DNA from: a virus
Lineage: Duplodnaviria > Heunggongvirae > Uroviricota > Caudoviricetes
Length of the DNA stretch: 64,000 bases
Reading direction: 5' to 3' (one strand)
Virus record (IMG/VR): IMGVR_UViG_3300038412_000041
Positions within the stretch are counted from its first letter, which is position 1, and each line of letters starts with the position of its first letter. Below are positions 41,042 to 45,033 of this stretch, piece after piece. The translations under genes and the position numbers were made by a program. The notes below the pieces were generated by a model, which saw only the letters and a program-made list of their open reading frames with translations, did no database searches and was not told the DNA's origin.

Positions 41042-41356
41042 ATGAGCAGAACCTACAGATTCAAGAAAGACAAGTGGTTGATATCTGAATACTCTATTCT
41101 ACGAAAATATGTAGGCTACGGCAGATATAGAAATGTTGACGCCAAAAGCAAAGAAGGTAGAAAGATACTAGCTGTCTTTCGTTCGGATAAGAAAGCAGGC
41201 ATTATGCGTTGGAGTGGTCCTGGTTGGTTTATCCACATGTTTGTTGAAGAGTCTCATCGAGCAAACTCAAGAGATACTCTAAAAAAGTATTTTCGGTTTC
41301 CAGACGAAGACCTTCTTATTGAAGGTAAACCTACTAACGACCAATATTGGTTTTAA
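41042..41356 (+). CDS. basic hypothetical protein
   Basis: MSRTYR start, AAGGAG upstream. Confidence 0.62.
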   Translation: MSRTYRFKKDKWLISEYSILRKYVGYGRYRNVDAKSKEGRKILAVFRSDKKAGIMRWSGPGWFIHMFVEESHRANSRDTLKKYFRFPDEDLLIEGKPTNDQYWF

Positions 41357-41360
41357 AAAC

Positions 41361-41437
<77 letters not shown>

Positions 41438-41452
41438 CTTTAAAGGATCATC

Positions 41453-41800
41453 ATGATTTCCATTAACGTTGTCTTAATCTTGTTGTTTACCCATTTCTAT
41501 GCAGACTTTATTCTGCAAACAGATTATCAAGCTAAGAACAAAAGCAGCAGTAATAAGGTTTTACTGCTGCATGTTTCTATCTATTCTTTACCTTTCATAG
41601 CAATCTCCTTGTTCTTAGGTCTGCCGCTTGTCTATGGTCCTTTGAATGCTGCTCTGCACTTTTGCACGGACTATGTAACCAGCAGGATAACCAAACGTCT
41701 GTGGCTCAACAAACAAGTTCACTGGTTCTTTGTGGTTATAGGTCTGGATCAATTTCTACATTATGCAGGCTTGCTTTTGACATATCAGTACTTTAAATAG
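41453..41800 (+). CDS. DUF3307-family membrane protein
   Basis: HFYADFILQ, LLLH...Y, HFCTD, GLDQFLH. Confidence 0.85.
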   Translation: MISINVVLILLFTHFYADFILQTDYQAKNKSSSNKVLLLHVSIYSLPFIAISLFLGLPLVYGPLNAALHFCTDYVTSRITKRLWLNKQVHWFFVVIGLDQFLHYAGLLLTYQYFK

Positions 41801-41810
41801 GAGCGCAATC

Positions 41811-42095
41811 ATGGAAAACAAAAATATAAGTGTAGGTGATTTGGTGCAAGTATCTAAACCAACTAGTTGTTGTGGCAAGAAGCCTTTGCGATCACCTACA
41901 TTTGTTGTCGCCTCTTTTGTAACAGGTATATCTGCATATTGCCGTTATTGTGGTAGTGACGTAACTAACCACACGACAGTAAAAGAGAATCTTTCAGACA
42001 AAGAAGGCTGGGATTTATCAATGCTTGTAAAGATTGCAGGTCCTGCCGAAGAAATTGCGATTTCTACAGAAAAGGAAAAAGATACGGTCAGCTAG
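41811..42095 (+). CDS. hypothetical protein
   Basis: 94 aa, CCG and CRYCG motifs. Confidence 0.62.
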   Translation: MENKNISVGDLVQVSKPTSCCGKKPLRSPTFVVASFVTGISAYCRYCGSDVTNHTTVKENLSDKEGWDLSMLVKIAGPAEEIAISTEKEKDTVS

Positions 42096-42363: not shown

Positions 42364-42392
42364 TTGACAAAAATCATGATTTAAAGTATAAT
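42364..42392 (+). promoter_or_regulatory. perfect consensus sigma70 promoter
   Basis: TTGACA-17 nt-TATAAT. Confidence 0.88.
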
Positions 42393-42420
42393 GAACTAAC
42401 GGAGTTTATTGGAGAAAAAC

Positions 42421-42660
42421 ATGGAACAAGTTACCGTACAGACTGCCTGGAACTTCCTTAGATCACTGCACAAAGTATGCCACTTCCAAACTAAAGAAGG
42501 CAAAAAAGTAGGGGAAGCCTCTACCAGCGAATTAAAACGCTGGATTCAAAACAAGGTGTTGTTAATCAATGGTGAAACTGTAGGTTGGGATGAAGTATTG
42601 GATTTTCCTTTAATCTCAGTAGTACTTTTTCCGAAAGGACAAACCATAACCCTCTTGTAA
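42421..42660 (+). CDS. small S4-like RNA-binding domain protein
   Basis: STSELKRWIQNKVLLINGETV resembles the S4 motif S.SEARRLI..G.V.ING. GGAG RBS before the ATG at 42421. Confidence 0.55.
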   Translation: MEQVTVQTAWNFLRSLHKVCHFQTKEGKKVGEASTSELKRWIQNKVLLINGETVGWDEVLDFPLISVVLFPKGQTITLL

Positions 42661-43070
42661 CAAGTCGTGCTTTCTGAAGAGTCTCCGACTATAAATGAGA
42701 CGAAACGTTCATAGAACGTCAAAGCTGACCTCACGATGTAAGCTTGAAAGGTTTCGGCACTTGGCAGGTGCTGAATAAATCGTGCGGTCTCAAAGGAAGA
42801 GCCGACTTTGGGGCAAGCTGTGGTTTGAATATCTAAAAGGTATGCAAACCGCAACCTCTAGCACTTTGATAAAGAGACGTTTTTTAAGAATGCCTCTTTG
42901 TACTGGCCGGTATCAGAGTGCTACTGGTTGCTCAAAAATAGGGCTGATATATGGTAGTGGCTATCAGCATCTACCAGATGCAGGTCGAAAGCATTGTGTC
43001 TTTACGATGCGTCTGGATAAATAGATGGAAGGGTTACCGACTTTTAACAAAGTTTTTGAGCAACCCTATT
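42655..43070 (+). ncRNA. candidate ~400-nt structured non-coding RNA (family not recognised)
   Basis: At least 8 stems seen by eye, including 42859-42871/42911-42923 (13 bp with one G-U), 42926-42938/43053-43065 (13 bp perfect) and a 5'/3' closing helix 42655-42667/43038-43050. No credible ORF. Strand inferred from the promoter and from G-U pairs. Confidence 0.62.
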
Positions 43071-43091
43071 TCATTTCATTAGGAGACAAAA

Positions 43092-43898
43092 ATGTCTACT
43101 TTAAGTGTATCGGGAAAAATCCGTGCAGTATTTGATTCAAATCCTGGTCGTTTTCTCACTGCTAAAGAAATAGCAACAATCCTTGATCTTGAAGCTACAC
43201 AGGTATCAACTGTTCTATCTGTAATTTTTAGCTCAAAGTCAAACTGGCTTGAACGCAAACACCAAACACAGATAACAACTACTAATGGAAAGTCTCGTCA
43301 TAAGACAGTGTATGCCTATGCACTGGCTATGCCTGAGAGTCTCAAACAAGAGACAACAGACTTGTTTTCTGCTAACGAGCCTGCTAAAGTCCCAACATCA
43401 AGTGCTCCTACTAAGGAGCTACTAAATCAAACGTTGCTCTCGGTGGAGACCCAGCTACAGAAGACGTTTGAGTCAATAATCTTGACTGCATTTGATAATG
43501 CAGCAAAGTCCGTTATCCCTGAATTGGAAAAGCGTTTACAGTCAATTGTGAATGCCGTGTTGATTCCAATATCAGGCCAACAAACTGCACCTGCTATAGA
43601 AAAAGAACGAAAACCAAAAGTATTAATAGCAGGGCTAATCAACTCTCAAATCCAGATCATTGAGAAAAAATTCAAAGATCATTTTGATCTTCGGTATTGG
43701 AGGTCAGAGCAAAGTCTTAAACAGTTAAAGTCTTCGATCAAGAGTATGGACGTTATCCTTGGGTTCACTGGAAAACTCAATCATTCTGCTGACGAGATAA
43801 TGGCACAGTCTGACAAGTACATACGAATATCAGGTGGTATGTCTTCCTTGGAAGAAGAGCTTGTCAAAATGTACGTTGAGATTTCAGAAACCAAATAG
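43092..43898 (+). CDS. N-terminal winged-HTH plus C-terminal DUF2325-like domain protein
   Basis: LTAKEIATILDLEATQVSTVL (HTH). KVLIAGL ... DVILGFTGKLNH ... GGMSSL (DUF2325-like pattern). Confidence 0.62.
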   Translation: MSTLSVSGKIRAVFDSNPGRFLTAKEIATILDLEATQVSTVLSVIFSSKSNWLERKHQTQITTTNGKSRHKTVYAYALAMPESLKQETTDLFSANEPAKVPTSSAPTKELLNQTLLSVETQLQKTFESIILTAFDNAAKSVIPELEKRLQSIVNAVLIPISGQQTAPAIEKERKPKVLIAGLINSQIQIIEKKFKDHFDLRYWRSEQSLKQLKSSIKSMDVILGFTGKLNHSADEIMAQSDKYIRISGGMSSLEEELVKMYVEISETK

Positions 43899-43953: not shown

Positions 43954-44004
43954 AGTATTGCAGCGTAAGCGTATCAATTTTTCATACTAACAATGGGAGC
44001 CTAT

Positions 44005-45033
44005 ATGAAATACGATCAGATTAAATTGTTGGTTCGTGGTGGTTATCAGATTCAAAAGTTACGTGTTCAGATGGGTAACAGAATCGTCGCAAACTTTAAA
44101 ACAAAGCTTGGGCAAGAGCCTGGAAAAGACGAAGAAACCATGAGCCCTGAAAGCCAGAAGATTTTAAGCGATATTCGCGCCAGCTATAACAAAATCATGG
44201 ATGGGTTAAAGCGTTTCCCTTATGCTGCCAGATTTAAAGGTGATGCCATTATCTCCAACTTTACAGAGCTTTGTCTGGTCGAGCAGTATGTAAAGATTGA
44301 AGATCAGGAGATAGAACACGATCTACGTCTAAAGAATGCCTTGGGTTTTGTACCTATCTATACGGAATTTTTGGAGAAGGTACCGGGCTGCGGCGTCAAG
44401 ATGAGTGGTGTAATCATTAGTGAGATTGACATATACAAGGCAAAGTACTCGTCTAGTTTGTGGAAGTATGCAGGCTTGGATGTTGTGACAAATGCTCCGC
44501 TCAAACAAGCAGCACATCTTTATAAGGTAGACGGACAAACACTTGACAAACTTCCAGATGGTGAAACCTTTACCACTGACGAAAATGTAAAAATTGTTCG
44601 CAATGGCGATACTGTAGAGTTTGTTGACGGCCAAGGAAGAAGCCGGATTAAATCACACCTGGTAACCCATAACTATCTTGATAGTGAAGGTTGTGAGAAG
44701 CAGCGGCTTGGTATTTCATTTAACCCGATGCTGAAAACAAAGCTTGTAGGTGTGCTTGGTGATTGTTTTCTACGAGCAGGTAAATCCAAGTACACGGATT
44801 TTTACTACAACTATAAGACACGGTTGAACAATGACCCACGTCATGCTGATAAGACCAAGGCACATAAGCACAACATGAGTATTCGTTATATGGTCAAACG
44901 GTTCTTGGTTGATCTGTATGTAAATTGGCGTACTCTTGAAGGTCTTCCTGTTGCCGACGAGTATGCAGTAGCAAAGCTTGGATTTGTTCACCAAGAAGGC
45001 AAAGAGCGGCACTTGGAAAGAAAAGTAGGTTGA
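44005..45033 (+). CDS. tasA: TasA-like Nop-domain RNA-guided DNA-binding protein (IS110-related, no nuclease domain)
   Basis: N-terminal coiled coil QKLRVQMGNRI. IS110/Nop-like core FLEKVPGCGVKMSGVIISEID...SSLWKYAGL. C-terminal FNPMLKTKL, YK.RL, H.HNM..RYM.K.FL.DLY..WR.LEGLPV. No N-terminal DEDD RuvC and no HNH. GGAG RBS before the ATG at 44005. Array starts at the stop codon. Confidence 0.85.
   Translation: MKYDQIKLLVRGGYQIQKLRVQMGNRIVANFKTKLGQEPGKDEETMSPESQKILSDIRASYNKIMDGLKRFPYAARFKGDAIISNFTELCLVEQYVKIEDQEIEHDLRLKNALGFVPIYTEFLEKVPGCGVKMSGVIISEIDIYKAKYSSSLWKYAGLDVVTNAPLKQAAHLYKVDGQTLDKLPDGETFTTDENVKIVRNGDTVEFVDGQGRSRIKSHLVTHNYLDSEGCEKQRLGISFNPMLKTKLVGVLGDCFLRAGKSKYTDFYYNYKTRLNNDPRHADKTKAHKHNMSIRYMVKRFLVDLYVNWRTLEGLPVADEYAVAKLGFVHQEGKERHLERKVG

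What the first reader, a model, noticed from the sequence alone, without database searches (positions are those of the whole stretch)
42655..43070. Unrecognised ~400-nt highly structured non-coding RNA candidate
In an otherwise gene-dense genome this gap is filled with stems: GTCTC/GAGAC, ACGTTC/GAACGT, TTCGGCAC/GTGCTGAA, TGTGGTTTG/CAAACCGCA, TAGCACTTTGATA/TATCAGAGTGCTA enclosing AAAGAG/CTCTTT, GCTGATA/TATCAGC (loop TGGTAG can pair with CTACCA at 42971, a possible pseudoknot), and CCAGATGCA/TGCGTCTGG. A 5'-3' closing helix (42655-42667/43038-43050, 11 of 13 pairs) is crossed by a perfect 13-bp pairing (42926-42938/43053-43065), implying a pseudoknot or a conformational switch. Repeated G-U pairs favour + strand RNA. 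I could not find tmRNA, RNase P or group I/II signatures. Large phage ncRNAs such as GOLLD and ROOL often lie near tRNAs, but I cannot assign this one.
Basis: partly seen in the sequence, partly recalled or inferred. Interest (0 to 1): 0.75.

Follow-up and report, generated by a model that had tools for sequence, protein, structure and literature searches.

The report
Hammerhead ribozyme releasing abundant phage RNA
The 430-base gene-free gap of this uncultured mine-drainage phage is not one large RNA: it opens with a real self-cutting hammerhead ribozyme, and the folded ~140-base RNA just behind the cut is about 800 times more abundant than the neighbouring messages, a testable clue to what phage hammerheads are for.

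Summary
It is a composite, not one 400-nt RNA.

- **Hammerhead (42663-42725, + strand).** Rfam scores it below threshold (20.7 bits; cut-off 34). A model built only from seven other phage hammerheads of the same subtype finds it at 69 bits (E 5e-18), the only significant hit in 64 kb. All three stems covary across the relatives, as does a pseudoknot between the 5' tail and loop II.
- **Where the subtype occurs.** It lies in or beside tRNA clusters or large gene-free gaps of unrelated phages (Pseudomonas ZC03/ZC08, Erwinia RAY, eight uncultured phage sequences). Behind it lies 170-590 nt of unannotated non-coding "cargo".
- **Domain D1 (42721-42861).** In an independent mine-drainage metatranscriptome, one contig covers 42730/32-42861 at depth 4863; flanking messages have depth 5-6. 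No RNA contig spans the predicted cut (42720|42721).
- **Rest of the gap.** D2 is a 21-bp hairpin, possibly an RNase III site. D3 (42926-43065) is expressed at mRNA level and continues into the next gene.

No homologue of the cargo was found, so its fold and function are unproven. This scan had noted hammerhead-led phage RNAs on other DNA before.

The parts
42364..42392 (+). Promoter-like site TTGACA-17-TATAAT (12 of 12 consensus) that would drive the small ORF, the hammerhead and the RNA behind it as one transcript
   Evidence: no other promoter-like site lies between it and the gap
42421..42660 (+). 79-aa conserved phage protein (phrog_28515) with an S4-like RNA-binding fold; its stop codon lies 3 nt before the hammerhead's pseudoknot strand
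   Evidence: AlphaFold2 pLDDT 85. The top Foldseek rows are nearly all S4-domain proteins (RluD, Hsp15, ribosomal S4, TyrRS C-terminal domain), but only at E 0.2-3. It is not followed by this RNA in 34 related loci.
42663..42725 (+). Type I hammerhead ribozyme. Parts: pseudoknot strand AGUCG 42663-67; stem I 42669-73 with 42721-25; core CUGAAGA 42674-80; stem II 42681-85 with 42697-42701; loop II CGACUAUAAAU 42686-96; GAA 42702-04; stem III 42705-10 with 42714-19; C17 at 42720
   Evidence: RF00163 20.7 bits, below threshold. A full descriptor matches once in the window and 0 times in 300 shuffles. The leave-one-out model R2 gives 69.2 bits, E 5e-18. Covariation.
42720..42721 (+). Predicted self-cleavage site (after C17), leaving a 2',3'-cyclic phosphate upstream and a 5'-OH on A42721
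   Evidence: Position follows from the hammerhead consensus. RNA contigs stop at 42700 and restart at 42730/32, none spans the site, and the DNA contig does.
42721..42861 (+). D1: abundant small RNA (the 3' cleavage product) with three predicted hairpin domains: P1/P2 42732-42784, P3 42787-42814, P4 42819-42853
   Evidence: RNA contig 42730-42861 with depth 4863 and 0 mismatches, joined to an Illumina adapter at its left end. Fold z -3.4 to -3.9 on + and -1.6 to -2.0 on -. No homologue found.
42851..42931 (+). D2: 21-position hairpin stem (6 bp, a 2x2 mismatch, then 13 bp) with an inner AAAGAG/CUCUUU hairpin. The abundant RNA ends at about 42859-42861, the 11th position of its 5' arm. Candidate RNase III site.
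   Evidence: I1; z -5.3; contig end; no RNA contig over 42862-42941. The RNase III assignment is inference.
42926..43065 (+). D3: domain closed by a perfect 13-bp helix. It holds a hairpin whose loop UGGUAG can pair with CUACCA (possible H-type pseudoknot) and the CCAGAUGCA/UGCGUCUGG hairpin. It behaves as the 5' leader of the next gene.
   Evidence: z -6.1. RNA contig 42942-43259 (depth 6) runs from D3 into the ORF.
43092..43898 (+). 268-aa orphan protein gene with its Shine-Dalgarno sequence AGGAG at 43081-85
   Evidence: in 5.8 billion proteins only itself was found

Best explanation
The gap is a composite RNA-processing locus read from the + strand. The steps are these.

1. A strong sigma-70-type promoter (42364-92) makes one transcript: small S4-like protein gene, hammerhead, structured RNA, next gene.
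2. The type I hammerhead is stabilised by a 5-bp pseudoknot between AGUCG (42663-67) and loop II. It cuts itself after C42720.
3. The upstream message is left capped at its 3' end by the folded ribozyme with a cyclic phosphate.
4. The downstream product starts with a 5'-hydroxyl at A42721.
5. That product is cut again at about 42861, inside the 21-bp D2 hairpin, most likely by host RNase III.
6. The resulting ~140-nt three-hairpin RNA (D1) is very stable and accumulates roughly 800-fold over the flanking messages.
7. D2's 3' half and D3 remain as the structured leader of the 268-aa gene.

Status of each claim:
- **Shown:** the hammerhead sequence and fold, and its family with covariation.
- **Shown within the limits of contig data:** the abundance of the 42730-42861 piece and its adapter-marked left end.
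- **Inferred:** cleavage in vivo; the 5'-OH as the reason for stability (escape from 5'-monophosphate-dependent decay); RNase III at 42861; and that D1 acts in trans as a phage small RNA (decoy or regulator), like the stable non-tRNA RNAs of the T4 tRNA cluster (recalled from my own knowledge).
For: **Hammerhead**
- All core nucleotides and three stems of 5, 5 and 6 bp are present. The descriptor matches once in the window and 0 times in 300 dinucleotide shuffles of 64 kb.
- Model R2, built from seven other phages without this sequence, hits 42662-42726 at 69.2 bits, E 5e-18. The next hit has E 0.49.
- On those seven sequences 96.4% of cells pair, 12 of 20 pairs change on both sides, 0 of 500 shuffles reach this, and slid controls pair at 28-51%.
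- With this window added (11 sequences), stem II pairs at all five positions and stem I at four in every sequence. H17 is never G. The fifth pseudoknot pair is A-U five times, C-G three times and U-A twice.

**Family context**
- ZC03 and ZC08: between tRNA-Met and tRNA-Asn.
- IMG/VR loci: directly behind tRNA ends or within tRNA clusters.
- Erwinia phage RAY: inside a 1.27-kb gene-free gap.

**RNA data**
- The run is from a different study than the DNA source.
- Contig 42730-42861 has depth 4863.4; contig 42376-42700 has 5.6 and contig 42942-43259 has 6.0.
- An adapter is joined at the left end of the abundant contig. No RNA contig crosses 42701-42729 or 42862-42941, while the DNA contig is continuous.
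- The adapter types (recognised from my own knowledge of Illumina adapters) place the RNA on the + strand. A + strand tRNA-Met contig in the same run carries the other adapter at its right end.

**Fold:** D1 is strand-specific.

**Literature:** reviews state that bacterial and phage hammerheads may process polycistronic RNAs into pieces of different stability, with the function still open (PMC3088659; PMC6765202).
Against: - The RNA evidence is from assembled contigs of one run. The tool warns that contigs cannot rank expression or prove ends.
- The left end lies 9-11 nt behind the predicted cut. I explain this by the usual loss of 5'-terminal bases in random-primed libraries, which is not shown here.
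- A PCR jackpot cannot be fully excluded.
- No homologue of D1, D2 or D3 was found anywhere, so no covariation supports their folds or any function.
- D2 and D3 fold equally well on both strands.
- The Rfam hammerhead score is below the gathering threshold.
Confidence: 0.7

Rival explanations
1. One large (~400 nt) ornate non-coding RNA spanning 42655-43070, closed by the 5'-3' helix and acting as a single unit. The hammerhead would be inactive or would serve only as a structural module.
For: The whole stretch folds with z -6.2. The long-range pairings 42655-67/43038-50 and 42926-38/43053-65 exist. In Erwinia phage RAY the same hammerhead subtype sits inside a 1.27-kb gene-free region.
Against: RNA depth differs about 800-fold between 42730-42861 and 42942-43259, and contigs break at the ribozyme site and at 42861. 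The 5' arm of the closing helix is the conserved pseudoknot partner of loop II. The hammerhead core is fully intact in all 11 relatives, which argues for activity.
Confidence: 0.08
2. The cargo is a cis-acting leader of the 268-aa gene, giving ribozyme- and RNase III-processed mRNA stabilisation or translational control. D1 would be a stable by-product with no function of its own.
For: D3 is contiguous with the ORF in RNA contigs. In several relatives the cargo is followed directly by an ORF (L104, L109). Processing of polycistronic phage RNAs by hammerheads has been proposed (PMC3088659).
Against: In other members the cargo ends at a tRNA (ZC03, L097, L098, L108) or at a terminator (L103, L105, L107), not at an ORF. 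So the module does not need a downstream gene. D1's extreme accumulation and strand-specific fold suggest selection for a stable product, but this is not proof.
Confidence: 0.17
3. A DNA-level element (inverted repeats for a DNA-binding protein, a replication or packaging signal), or chance stems next to an unrelated ribozyme.
For: D2 and D3 are near-perfect inverted repeats with equal fold scores on both strands. No homologues exist to show RNA-level constraint.
Against: The region is transcribed and D1 is hugely over-represented as RNA. D1's fold is strand-specific. The 13-mer arm has no further exact or one-mismatch copy in the window.
Confidence: 0.05

Closest known systems
Type I hammerhead ribozymes of phages and prophages with a pseudoknot tertiary contact (Rfam RF00163, clan CL00010; Perreault et al. 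2011, PMC3088659)
   Same: The full catalytic core, three stems, a type I topology open at stem I, and a short pseudoknot that should hold stems I and II together. It lies between genes of a phage transcript, as described for prophage hammerheads.
   Different: It scores below Rfam's threshold (20.7 bits; cut-off 34). It belongs to a tight subtype with a nearly fixed 11-nt loop II (CGAC-N-UAAAU-like) pairing to N-GUCG just 5' of stem I. That subtype lies in or beside tRNA clusters or large gene-free gaps in nearly all relatives and is followed by long non-coding cargo rather than directly by an ORF.
Unannotated hammerhead-plus-cargo gaps of Pseudomonas phages ZC03/ZC08 (KU356690, KU356691) and Erwinia phage RAY (KU886224)
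   Same: The same hammerhead subtype: R2 scores 87.9 bits for ZC03 and 36.2 bits, E 1.3e-7, for RAY. It shares the identical loop II with ZC03. The arrangement is also shared: ribozyme followed by about 250 nt (ZC03) or about 590 nt (RAY) of gene-free, hairpin-rich sequence.
   Different: The cargo sequences are unrelated to this one (Smith-Waterman z <= 0.5; the D1 model hits nothing). In ZC03 the unit lies between two tRNAs. Here it lies between two protein genes, about 480 nt behind tRNA-Met.
Stable non-tRNA small RNAs in the phage T4 tRNA gene cluster (species 1 and 2, rnaC/rnaD; recalled from my own knowledge, not checked here)
   Same: Stable RNAs of about 120-140 nt and unknown function, co-transcribed with phage tRNA-region genes and released by processing.
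   Different: No sequence match to any cultured phage. The T4 RNAs are not known to be released by a ribozyme.
GOLLD (RF01998) and ROOL (RF03087) large phage-associated RNAs
   Same: Phage-borne, near tRNA genes, function unknown.
   Different: No Rfam match even at E 10. This locus is much smaller and is processed into pieces rather than kept as one large RNA.

Membership tests
Hammerhead ribozyme (type I) | Conserved core C3 U4 G5 A6 N7 G8 A9 ... G12 A13 A14, the A15.1-U16.1 pair, and H17 not G | tested here: met
   CUGAAGA at 42674-80, GAA at 42702-04, A42705-U42719, C42720
Hammerhead ribozyme (type I) | Three helices around the core, supported by covariation | tested here: met
   Stems of 5, 5 and 6 bp. 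In the relatives 12 of 20 pairs change on both sides and 96.4% of cells pair, with 0 of 500 shuffles as high. The 11-sequence counts including this window agree.
Hammerhead ribozyme (type I) | [quoted passage not shown] | tested here: met
   AGUCG 42663-67 pairs with CGACU 42686-90. The fifth pair covaries: A-U, C-G and U-A in 10 of 11 sequences. The four inner pairs were fixed by my search pattern and say nothing.
Hammerhead ribozyme (type I) | Score at or above Rfam RF00163's gathering threshold (34 bits) | tested here: not met
   20.7 bits, E 0.039 on 901 nt. A subtype-specific leave-one-out model gives 69.2 bits, E 5e-18. RF00163 also misses the RAY copy.
Hammerhead ribozyme (type I) | Self-cleavage at H17 | not testable with these tools
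   Only indirect evidence: RNA contigs end at 42700 and restart at 42730/32, and none spans 42720/21, whereas the DNA contig does.
Hammerhead-led cargo RNA cassettes noted earlier in this scan (double-pseudoknot ~125-170-nt RNA) | Cargo homologous to, or sharing the fold of, the recurrent cassette | tested here: inconclusive
   I had no sequence of those cassettes. Against the nine other cargo types I collected there is no similarity. An 8-mer motif (CAAGCUGU) seen by eye is not above chance.
Known large or small RNA families (tmRNA, RNase P, group I/II introns, HDV-like, twister, pistol, hatchet, GOLLD, ROOL, YrlA, tRNA) | Match to the Rfam covariance model | tested here: not met
   No hit in the gap at gathering thresholds. 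At E <= 10 there is only the hammerhead plus noise.
RNase III processing site | About 20 bp of double-stranded stem with a cut inside it | tested here: inconclusive
   A 21-position stem, 42851-71 with 42911-31, 86% paired. The abundant contig ends at 42861, the 11th position of the 5' arm. The enzyme cannot be tested here.

The most novel reading that the evidence does not exclude
A conserved pseudoknotted hammerhead acts as a portable "launcher" in phage tRNA islands and large non-coding gaps. It gives interchangeable cargo RNAs a 5'-hydroxyl end that escapes 5'-end-dependent decay, so they pile up to very high levels. D1 would be a new, lineage-specific trans-acting phage small RNA (for example a decoy for a host RNA-binding defence or tRNA-targeting factor) made in this way. 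That would give phage hammerheads a defined biological job.
Probability: 0.3. Interest if true: 0.8.

Novelty: new variant of a known kind. Interest (0 to 1): 0.62.

Why it matters
What genomically encoded hammerheads do in bacteria and phages is a long-standing open question (PMC6765202). This locus pairs a covariation-supported hammerhead with field RNA data in which the piece directly behind the cut is about 800 times deeper than its own co-transcribed neighbours.

This gives a concrete hypothesis that can be tested by experiment: the ribozyme cut sets the 5' end and the stability of a small RNA. The same ribozyme subtype occurs in cultured phages (Pseudomonas ZC03/ZC08, Erwinia RAY), so the idea can be tested in laboratory systems even though this phage has no known host.

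It also shows that Rfam's hammerhead model misses this subtype, so such loci remain unannotated in phage genomes.

Tried and rejected
**Searches for homologues of the cargo. All failed.**
- blastn against 50,697 phage records at E 1e-5 and at E 10: only the hammerhead half matched ZC03.
- Synteny through the 268-aa gene: an orphan with no relatives.
- Synteny through the 79-aa gene: 34 loci, none followed by this RNA or by a hammerhead.
- Synteny through the Tas-like gene and through the topoisomerase.
- A loop-anchored pattern in JGI metagenomes: 37 chance hits, none related.
- One viral scan was wasted on a pattern I mis-spaced, so it could not have matched even this window.
- A pattern scan of 185,579 representative genomes: one chance hit.
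- The 80-aa ORF searched as a protein: nothing.
- Single-sequence D1 model over the window, 22 loci and 5 whole viral records: only itself.
- The scan's own index searched by sequence: nothing.

**Other tests that led nowhere**
- Generic phage hammerheads with GUC|AAA (19 loci) are followed directly by ORFs and have no such cargo.
- RF00163 on related jumbo-phage contigs and on RAY/RisingSun found nothing, so the Rfam model is too narrow; R2 then found RAY.
- The shared cargo motif CAAG-Y-UGU seen by eye is not above shuffles: 84 of 300 shuffles do as well.
- The idea that the 13-bp inverted repeat marks a repeated mobile element: no other exact or one-mismatch copy in the window.
- Second ribozyme at 42861: an HDV-like, twister, pistol or hatchet ribozyme is rejected because there is no model hit. 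By-eye inspection adds that the helix order does not fit the HDV topology.
- RNase P-type cut at the base of D2: rejected because the contig extends 3 nt into the stem.
- Target search of D1 against 182 translation-initiation regions of the window: no outlier above shuffles, and the duplex energies looked unreliable.
- No RNA-repair or ligase gene was recognised among 18 neighbouring ORFs.

Full report
**Observation.** The window is a gene-dense stretch of an uncultured phage. Its source contig is about 190 kb and comes from mine drainage. No cultured phage is a DNA-level relative, and its type II topoisomerase is about 40% identical to those of Xanthomonas and Erwinia jumbo phages. Between the + strand ORFs 42421-42660 and 43092-43898 lie 431 bases with no called gene. 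The + strand folds at -143.8 kcal/mol, z -6.2 against dinucleotide shuffles; the flanking ORFs give z -0.2 and -1.8.

**A hammerhead at the 5' end.** Rfam at gathering thresholds reports only the five tRNAs upstream. In E-value mode the best hit in the gap is Hammerhead_1 at 42668-42716, 20.7 bits against a cut-off of 34. Read directly, the sequence is a complete type I hammerhead:
- stem I: GCUUU (42669-73) with AAAGC (42721-25);
- core: CUGAAGA (42674-80);
- stem II: GUCUC/GAGAC, with the 11-nt loop CGACUAUAAAU;
- GAA (42702-04);
- stem III: ACGUUC-AUA-GAACGU;
- C17 at 42720.

A descriptor that demands the core plus three stems of at least 4 bp matches once in the window and 0 times in 300 dinucleotide shuffles of all 64 kb.

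**The hammerhead has relatives, and they covary.** A permissive blastn matched the 5' half to an unannotated gap between tRNA-Met and tRNA-Asn of Pseudomonas phage ZC03; ZC08 has the same gap. The two ribozymes share loop II and the upstream AGUCG exactly but differ in all three stems by compensatory changes. Pattern scans of IMG/VR built on that signature gave nine further loci, seven of them distinct.

- Over 11 sequences, every position of stem II and four positions of stem I pair in every sequence. H17 is C, A or U, never G. The fifth pair of a pseudoknot between the 5' tail and loop II is A-U five times, C-G three times and U-A twice. The inner GUCG/CGAC and the core were fixed by my patterns, so their invariance carries no weight.
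- On an alignment of seven relatives without this window, 96.4% of cells pair and 12 of 20 pairs change on both sides. No shuffle of 500 reaches this, and slid controls pair at 28-51%.
- A covariance model built from those seven finds 42662-42726 at 69.2 bits, E 5e-18. The next hit in the window has E 0.49.
- The same model finds a copy in Erwinia phage RAY (E 1.3e-7) inside a 1.27-kb gene-free gap. Rfam's RF00163 had missed that copy.

I regard the hammerhead as established in sequence and fold. Cleavage itself cannot be tested with these tools.

**Context of the family.** In ZC03/ZC08, L097, L098/L099, L104 and L108 the ribozyme lies in a tRNA cluster. In most of these it starts 0-16 nt behind a tRNA or tRNA-like CCA end. 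Behind it lie roughly 170-590 nt of non-coding sequence. This cargo ends at the next tRNA (ZC03, L097, L098, L108), at a terminator (L103, L105, L107, and apparently RAY) or at an ORF (L104, L109, and this window). The cargos fall into several unrelated sequence groups. Only ZC03/ZC08/L097 and L103/L107 are clearly alike, and L098 is weakly similar to L103. RAY was not in that comparison; I saw its resemblance to L103/L107 only by eye, in a short motif near the 3' end. This window's cargo resembles none of them (z <= 0.5).

**RNA evidence.** Two public runs hold the stretch: the probable DNA source and an independent 2025 metatranscriptome from mine drainage. Only contigs could be laid. The phage is present and transcribed in the RNA run, with perfect-match contigs over 41300-41985, 42376-700, 42942-43259 and 43444-594 at depths of 2-10. 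One 153-nt contig has depth 4863.4. It matches 42730-42861 without a mismatch and carries 21 letters of Illumina adapter at its left end. The next two bases, CT, fit both adapter and genome, so the insert starts at 42732 or 42730.

- Nothing covers 42701-42729 or 42862-42941 in RNA, while the DNA contig is continuous.
- The abundant piece therefore starts 9-11 nt behind the predicted cut. From general knowledge, the first ~10 nt of an RNA are commonly lost in random-primed libraries. This is an inference.
- The piece ends at about 42859-61.
- The adapter at its left end is the read-1 type. In the same run a + strand tRNA-Met contig carries the read-2 type at its right end. Both fit a stranded library and a + strand RNA; I recognised the adapters from my own knowledge.
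- Limits: one run, contigs only, and the tool's own warning that contigs do not prove ends or levels. Even so, an 800-fold step within one transcription unit, exactly behind a ribozyme, is hard to explain otherwise.

**Anatomy behind the cut.**
- **D1 (42721-42861)** is predicted to form three hairpin domains: P1/P2, closed by CACGAU/AUCGUG, then P3 and P4. Its fold score is strand-specific, z -3.4 to -3.9 on + and -1.6 to -2.0 on -.
- **D2** is a 21-position stem (42851-71 with 42911-31). The abundant RNA ends at the 11th position of its 5' arm, which fits an RNase III-type cut in a ~20-bp helix. This is an inference.
- **D3 (42926-43065)** is closed by a perfect 13-bp helix and contains a possible H-type pseudoknot (UGGUAG/CUACCA). 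In RNA it is contiguous with the 268-aa ORF at mRNA-like depth. It therefore behaves as that gene's leader, not as part of the abundant RNA.
It has no comparative support.

**Surroundings.**
- A perfect TTGACA-17-TATAAT site at 42364-92 precedes the 79-aa ORF.
- That protein is widespread and 60-79% conserved. Its confident model (pLDDT 85) resembles S4-type RNA-binding domains, but only weakly (E 0.2-3). It is not linked to this RNA or to tRNAs elsewhere.
- The 268-aa gene is an orphan.
- Downstream lies a Tas-like gene (phrog_4285). Behind it the 9-mer AGAAACCCA recurs at about 36-nt spacing, in line with another note of this scan on a TIGR array. I found no link between it and the RNA.

**What could not be shown.** No homologue of D1-D3 was found by any route; the routes are listed under Tried and rejected. 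The predicted cargo folds and any function therefore rest on one sequence plus the RNA depth. Earlier notes of this scan describe hammerhead-led RNAs of about 120-310 nt in other phages. My data agree with the general pattern and extend it to a defined ribozyme subtype. I could not test whether this cargo shares their "double pseudoknot" fold.

**Verdict.** The feature is real, but it is a composite, not one large RNA: a hammerhead of a phage-specific, pseudoknotted subtype; an abundant small RNA of about 140 nt released behind it; and a structured leader. The ribozyme is a new member of a known class. The ribozyme-launched, highly accumulating orphan small RNA is a new variant of a known kind of arrangement, with unknown function.

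Noticed in passing
window 43993-45787: A 346-aa protein matching phrog_4285 ('transposase', E 3e-31) is followed by about 750 nt in which AGAAACCCA (one mismatch allowed) recurs 13 times at about 36-nt spacing (45049-45769). A 48%-identical homologue lies in IMG/VR locus L001.
   Followed up: partly
window 42421-42660: A small (79 aa), very widespread phage protein (phrog_28515; over 120 clusters at 60-79% identity) has a predicted S4-like RNA-binding fold. It has no Pfam family and is driven here by a perfect consensus sigma-70 promoter (42364-92).
   Followed up: partly
L112 390-1657 (Erwinia phage RAY KU886224, 167689-168956): A 1.27-kb gene-free region between gp203 and gp204 holds an unannotated hammerhead of the same subtype at record 168294-168366. 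By eye, a short motif near the 3' end of this gap resembles one in the cargos of IMG/VR loci L103 and L107; I did not test this. Rfam RF00163 does not detect this hammerhead.
   Followed up: partly
L096 1984-2309 (Pseudomonas phage ZC03 KU356690, 42196-42521): An unannotated 326-nt gap inside the tRNA cluster holds a hammerhead plus about 250 nt of cargo. The invariant hairpin loop GUUGUUACCCUUA can pair with the downstream GAUGGGUAAC (candidate pseudoknot). It is conserved in ZC08 and in IMG/VR locus L097.
   Followed up: partly
L098 about 2585-2612 and L103 about 2877-2905: The hammerheads are preceded by tRNA-like 3' ends (T-arm, acceptor and CCA-like sequence) that neither ARAGORN nor Rfam calls as tRNAs. 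These may be truncated tRNA copies next to the ribozyme.
   Followed up: no
window 42685-90, 42801-06, 43037-42: The hexamer CCGACU occurs three times in the gap: in hammerhead loop II, in the P3 loop of D1, and in D3. Each copy is complementary to the single AGUCG at 42663-67. This could allow alternative pairings that compete with the ribozyme's pseudoknot. There is no comparative support.
   Followed up: no
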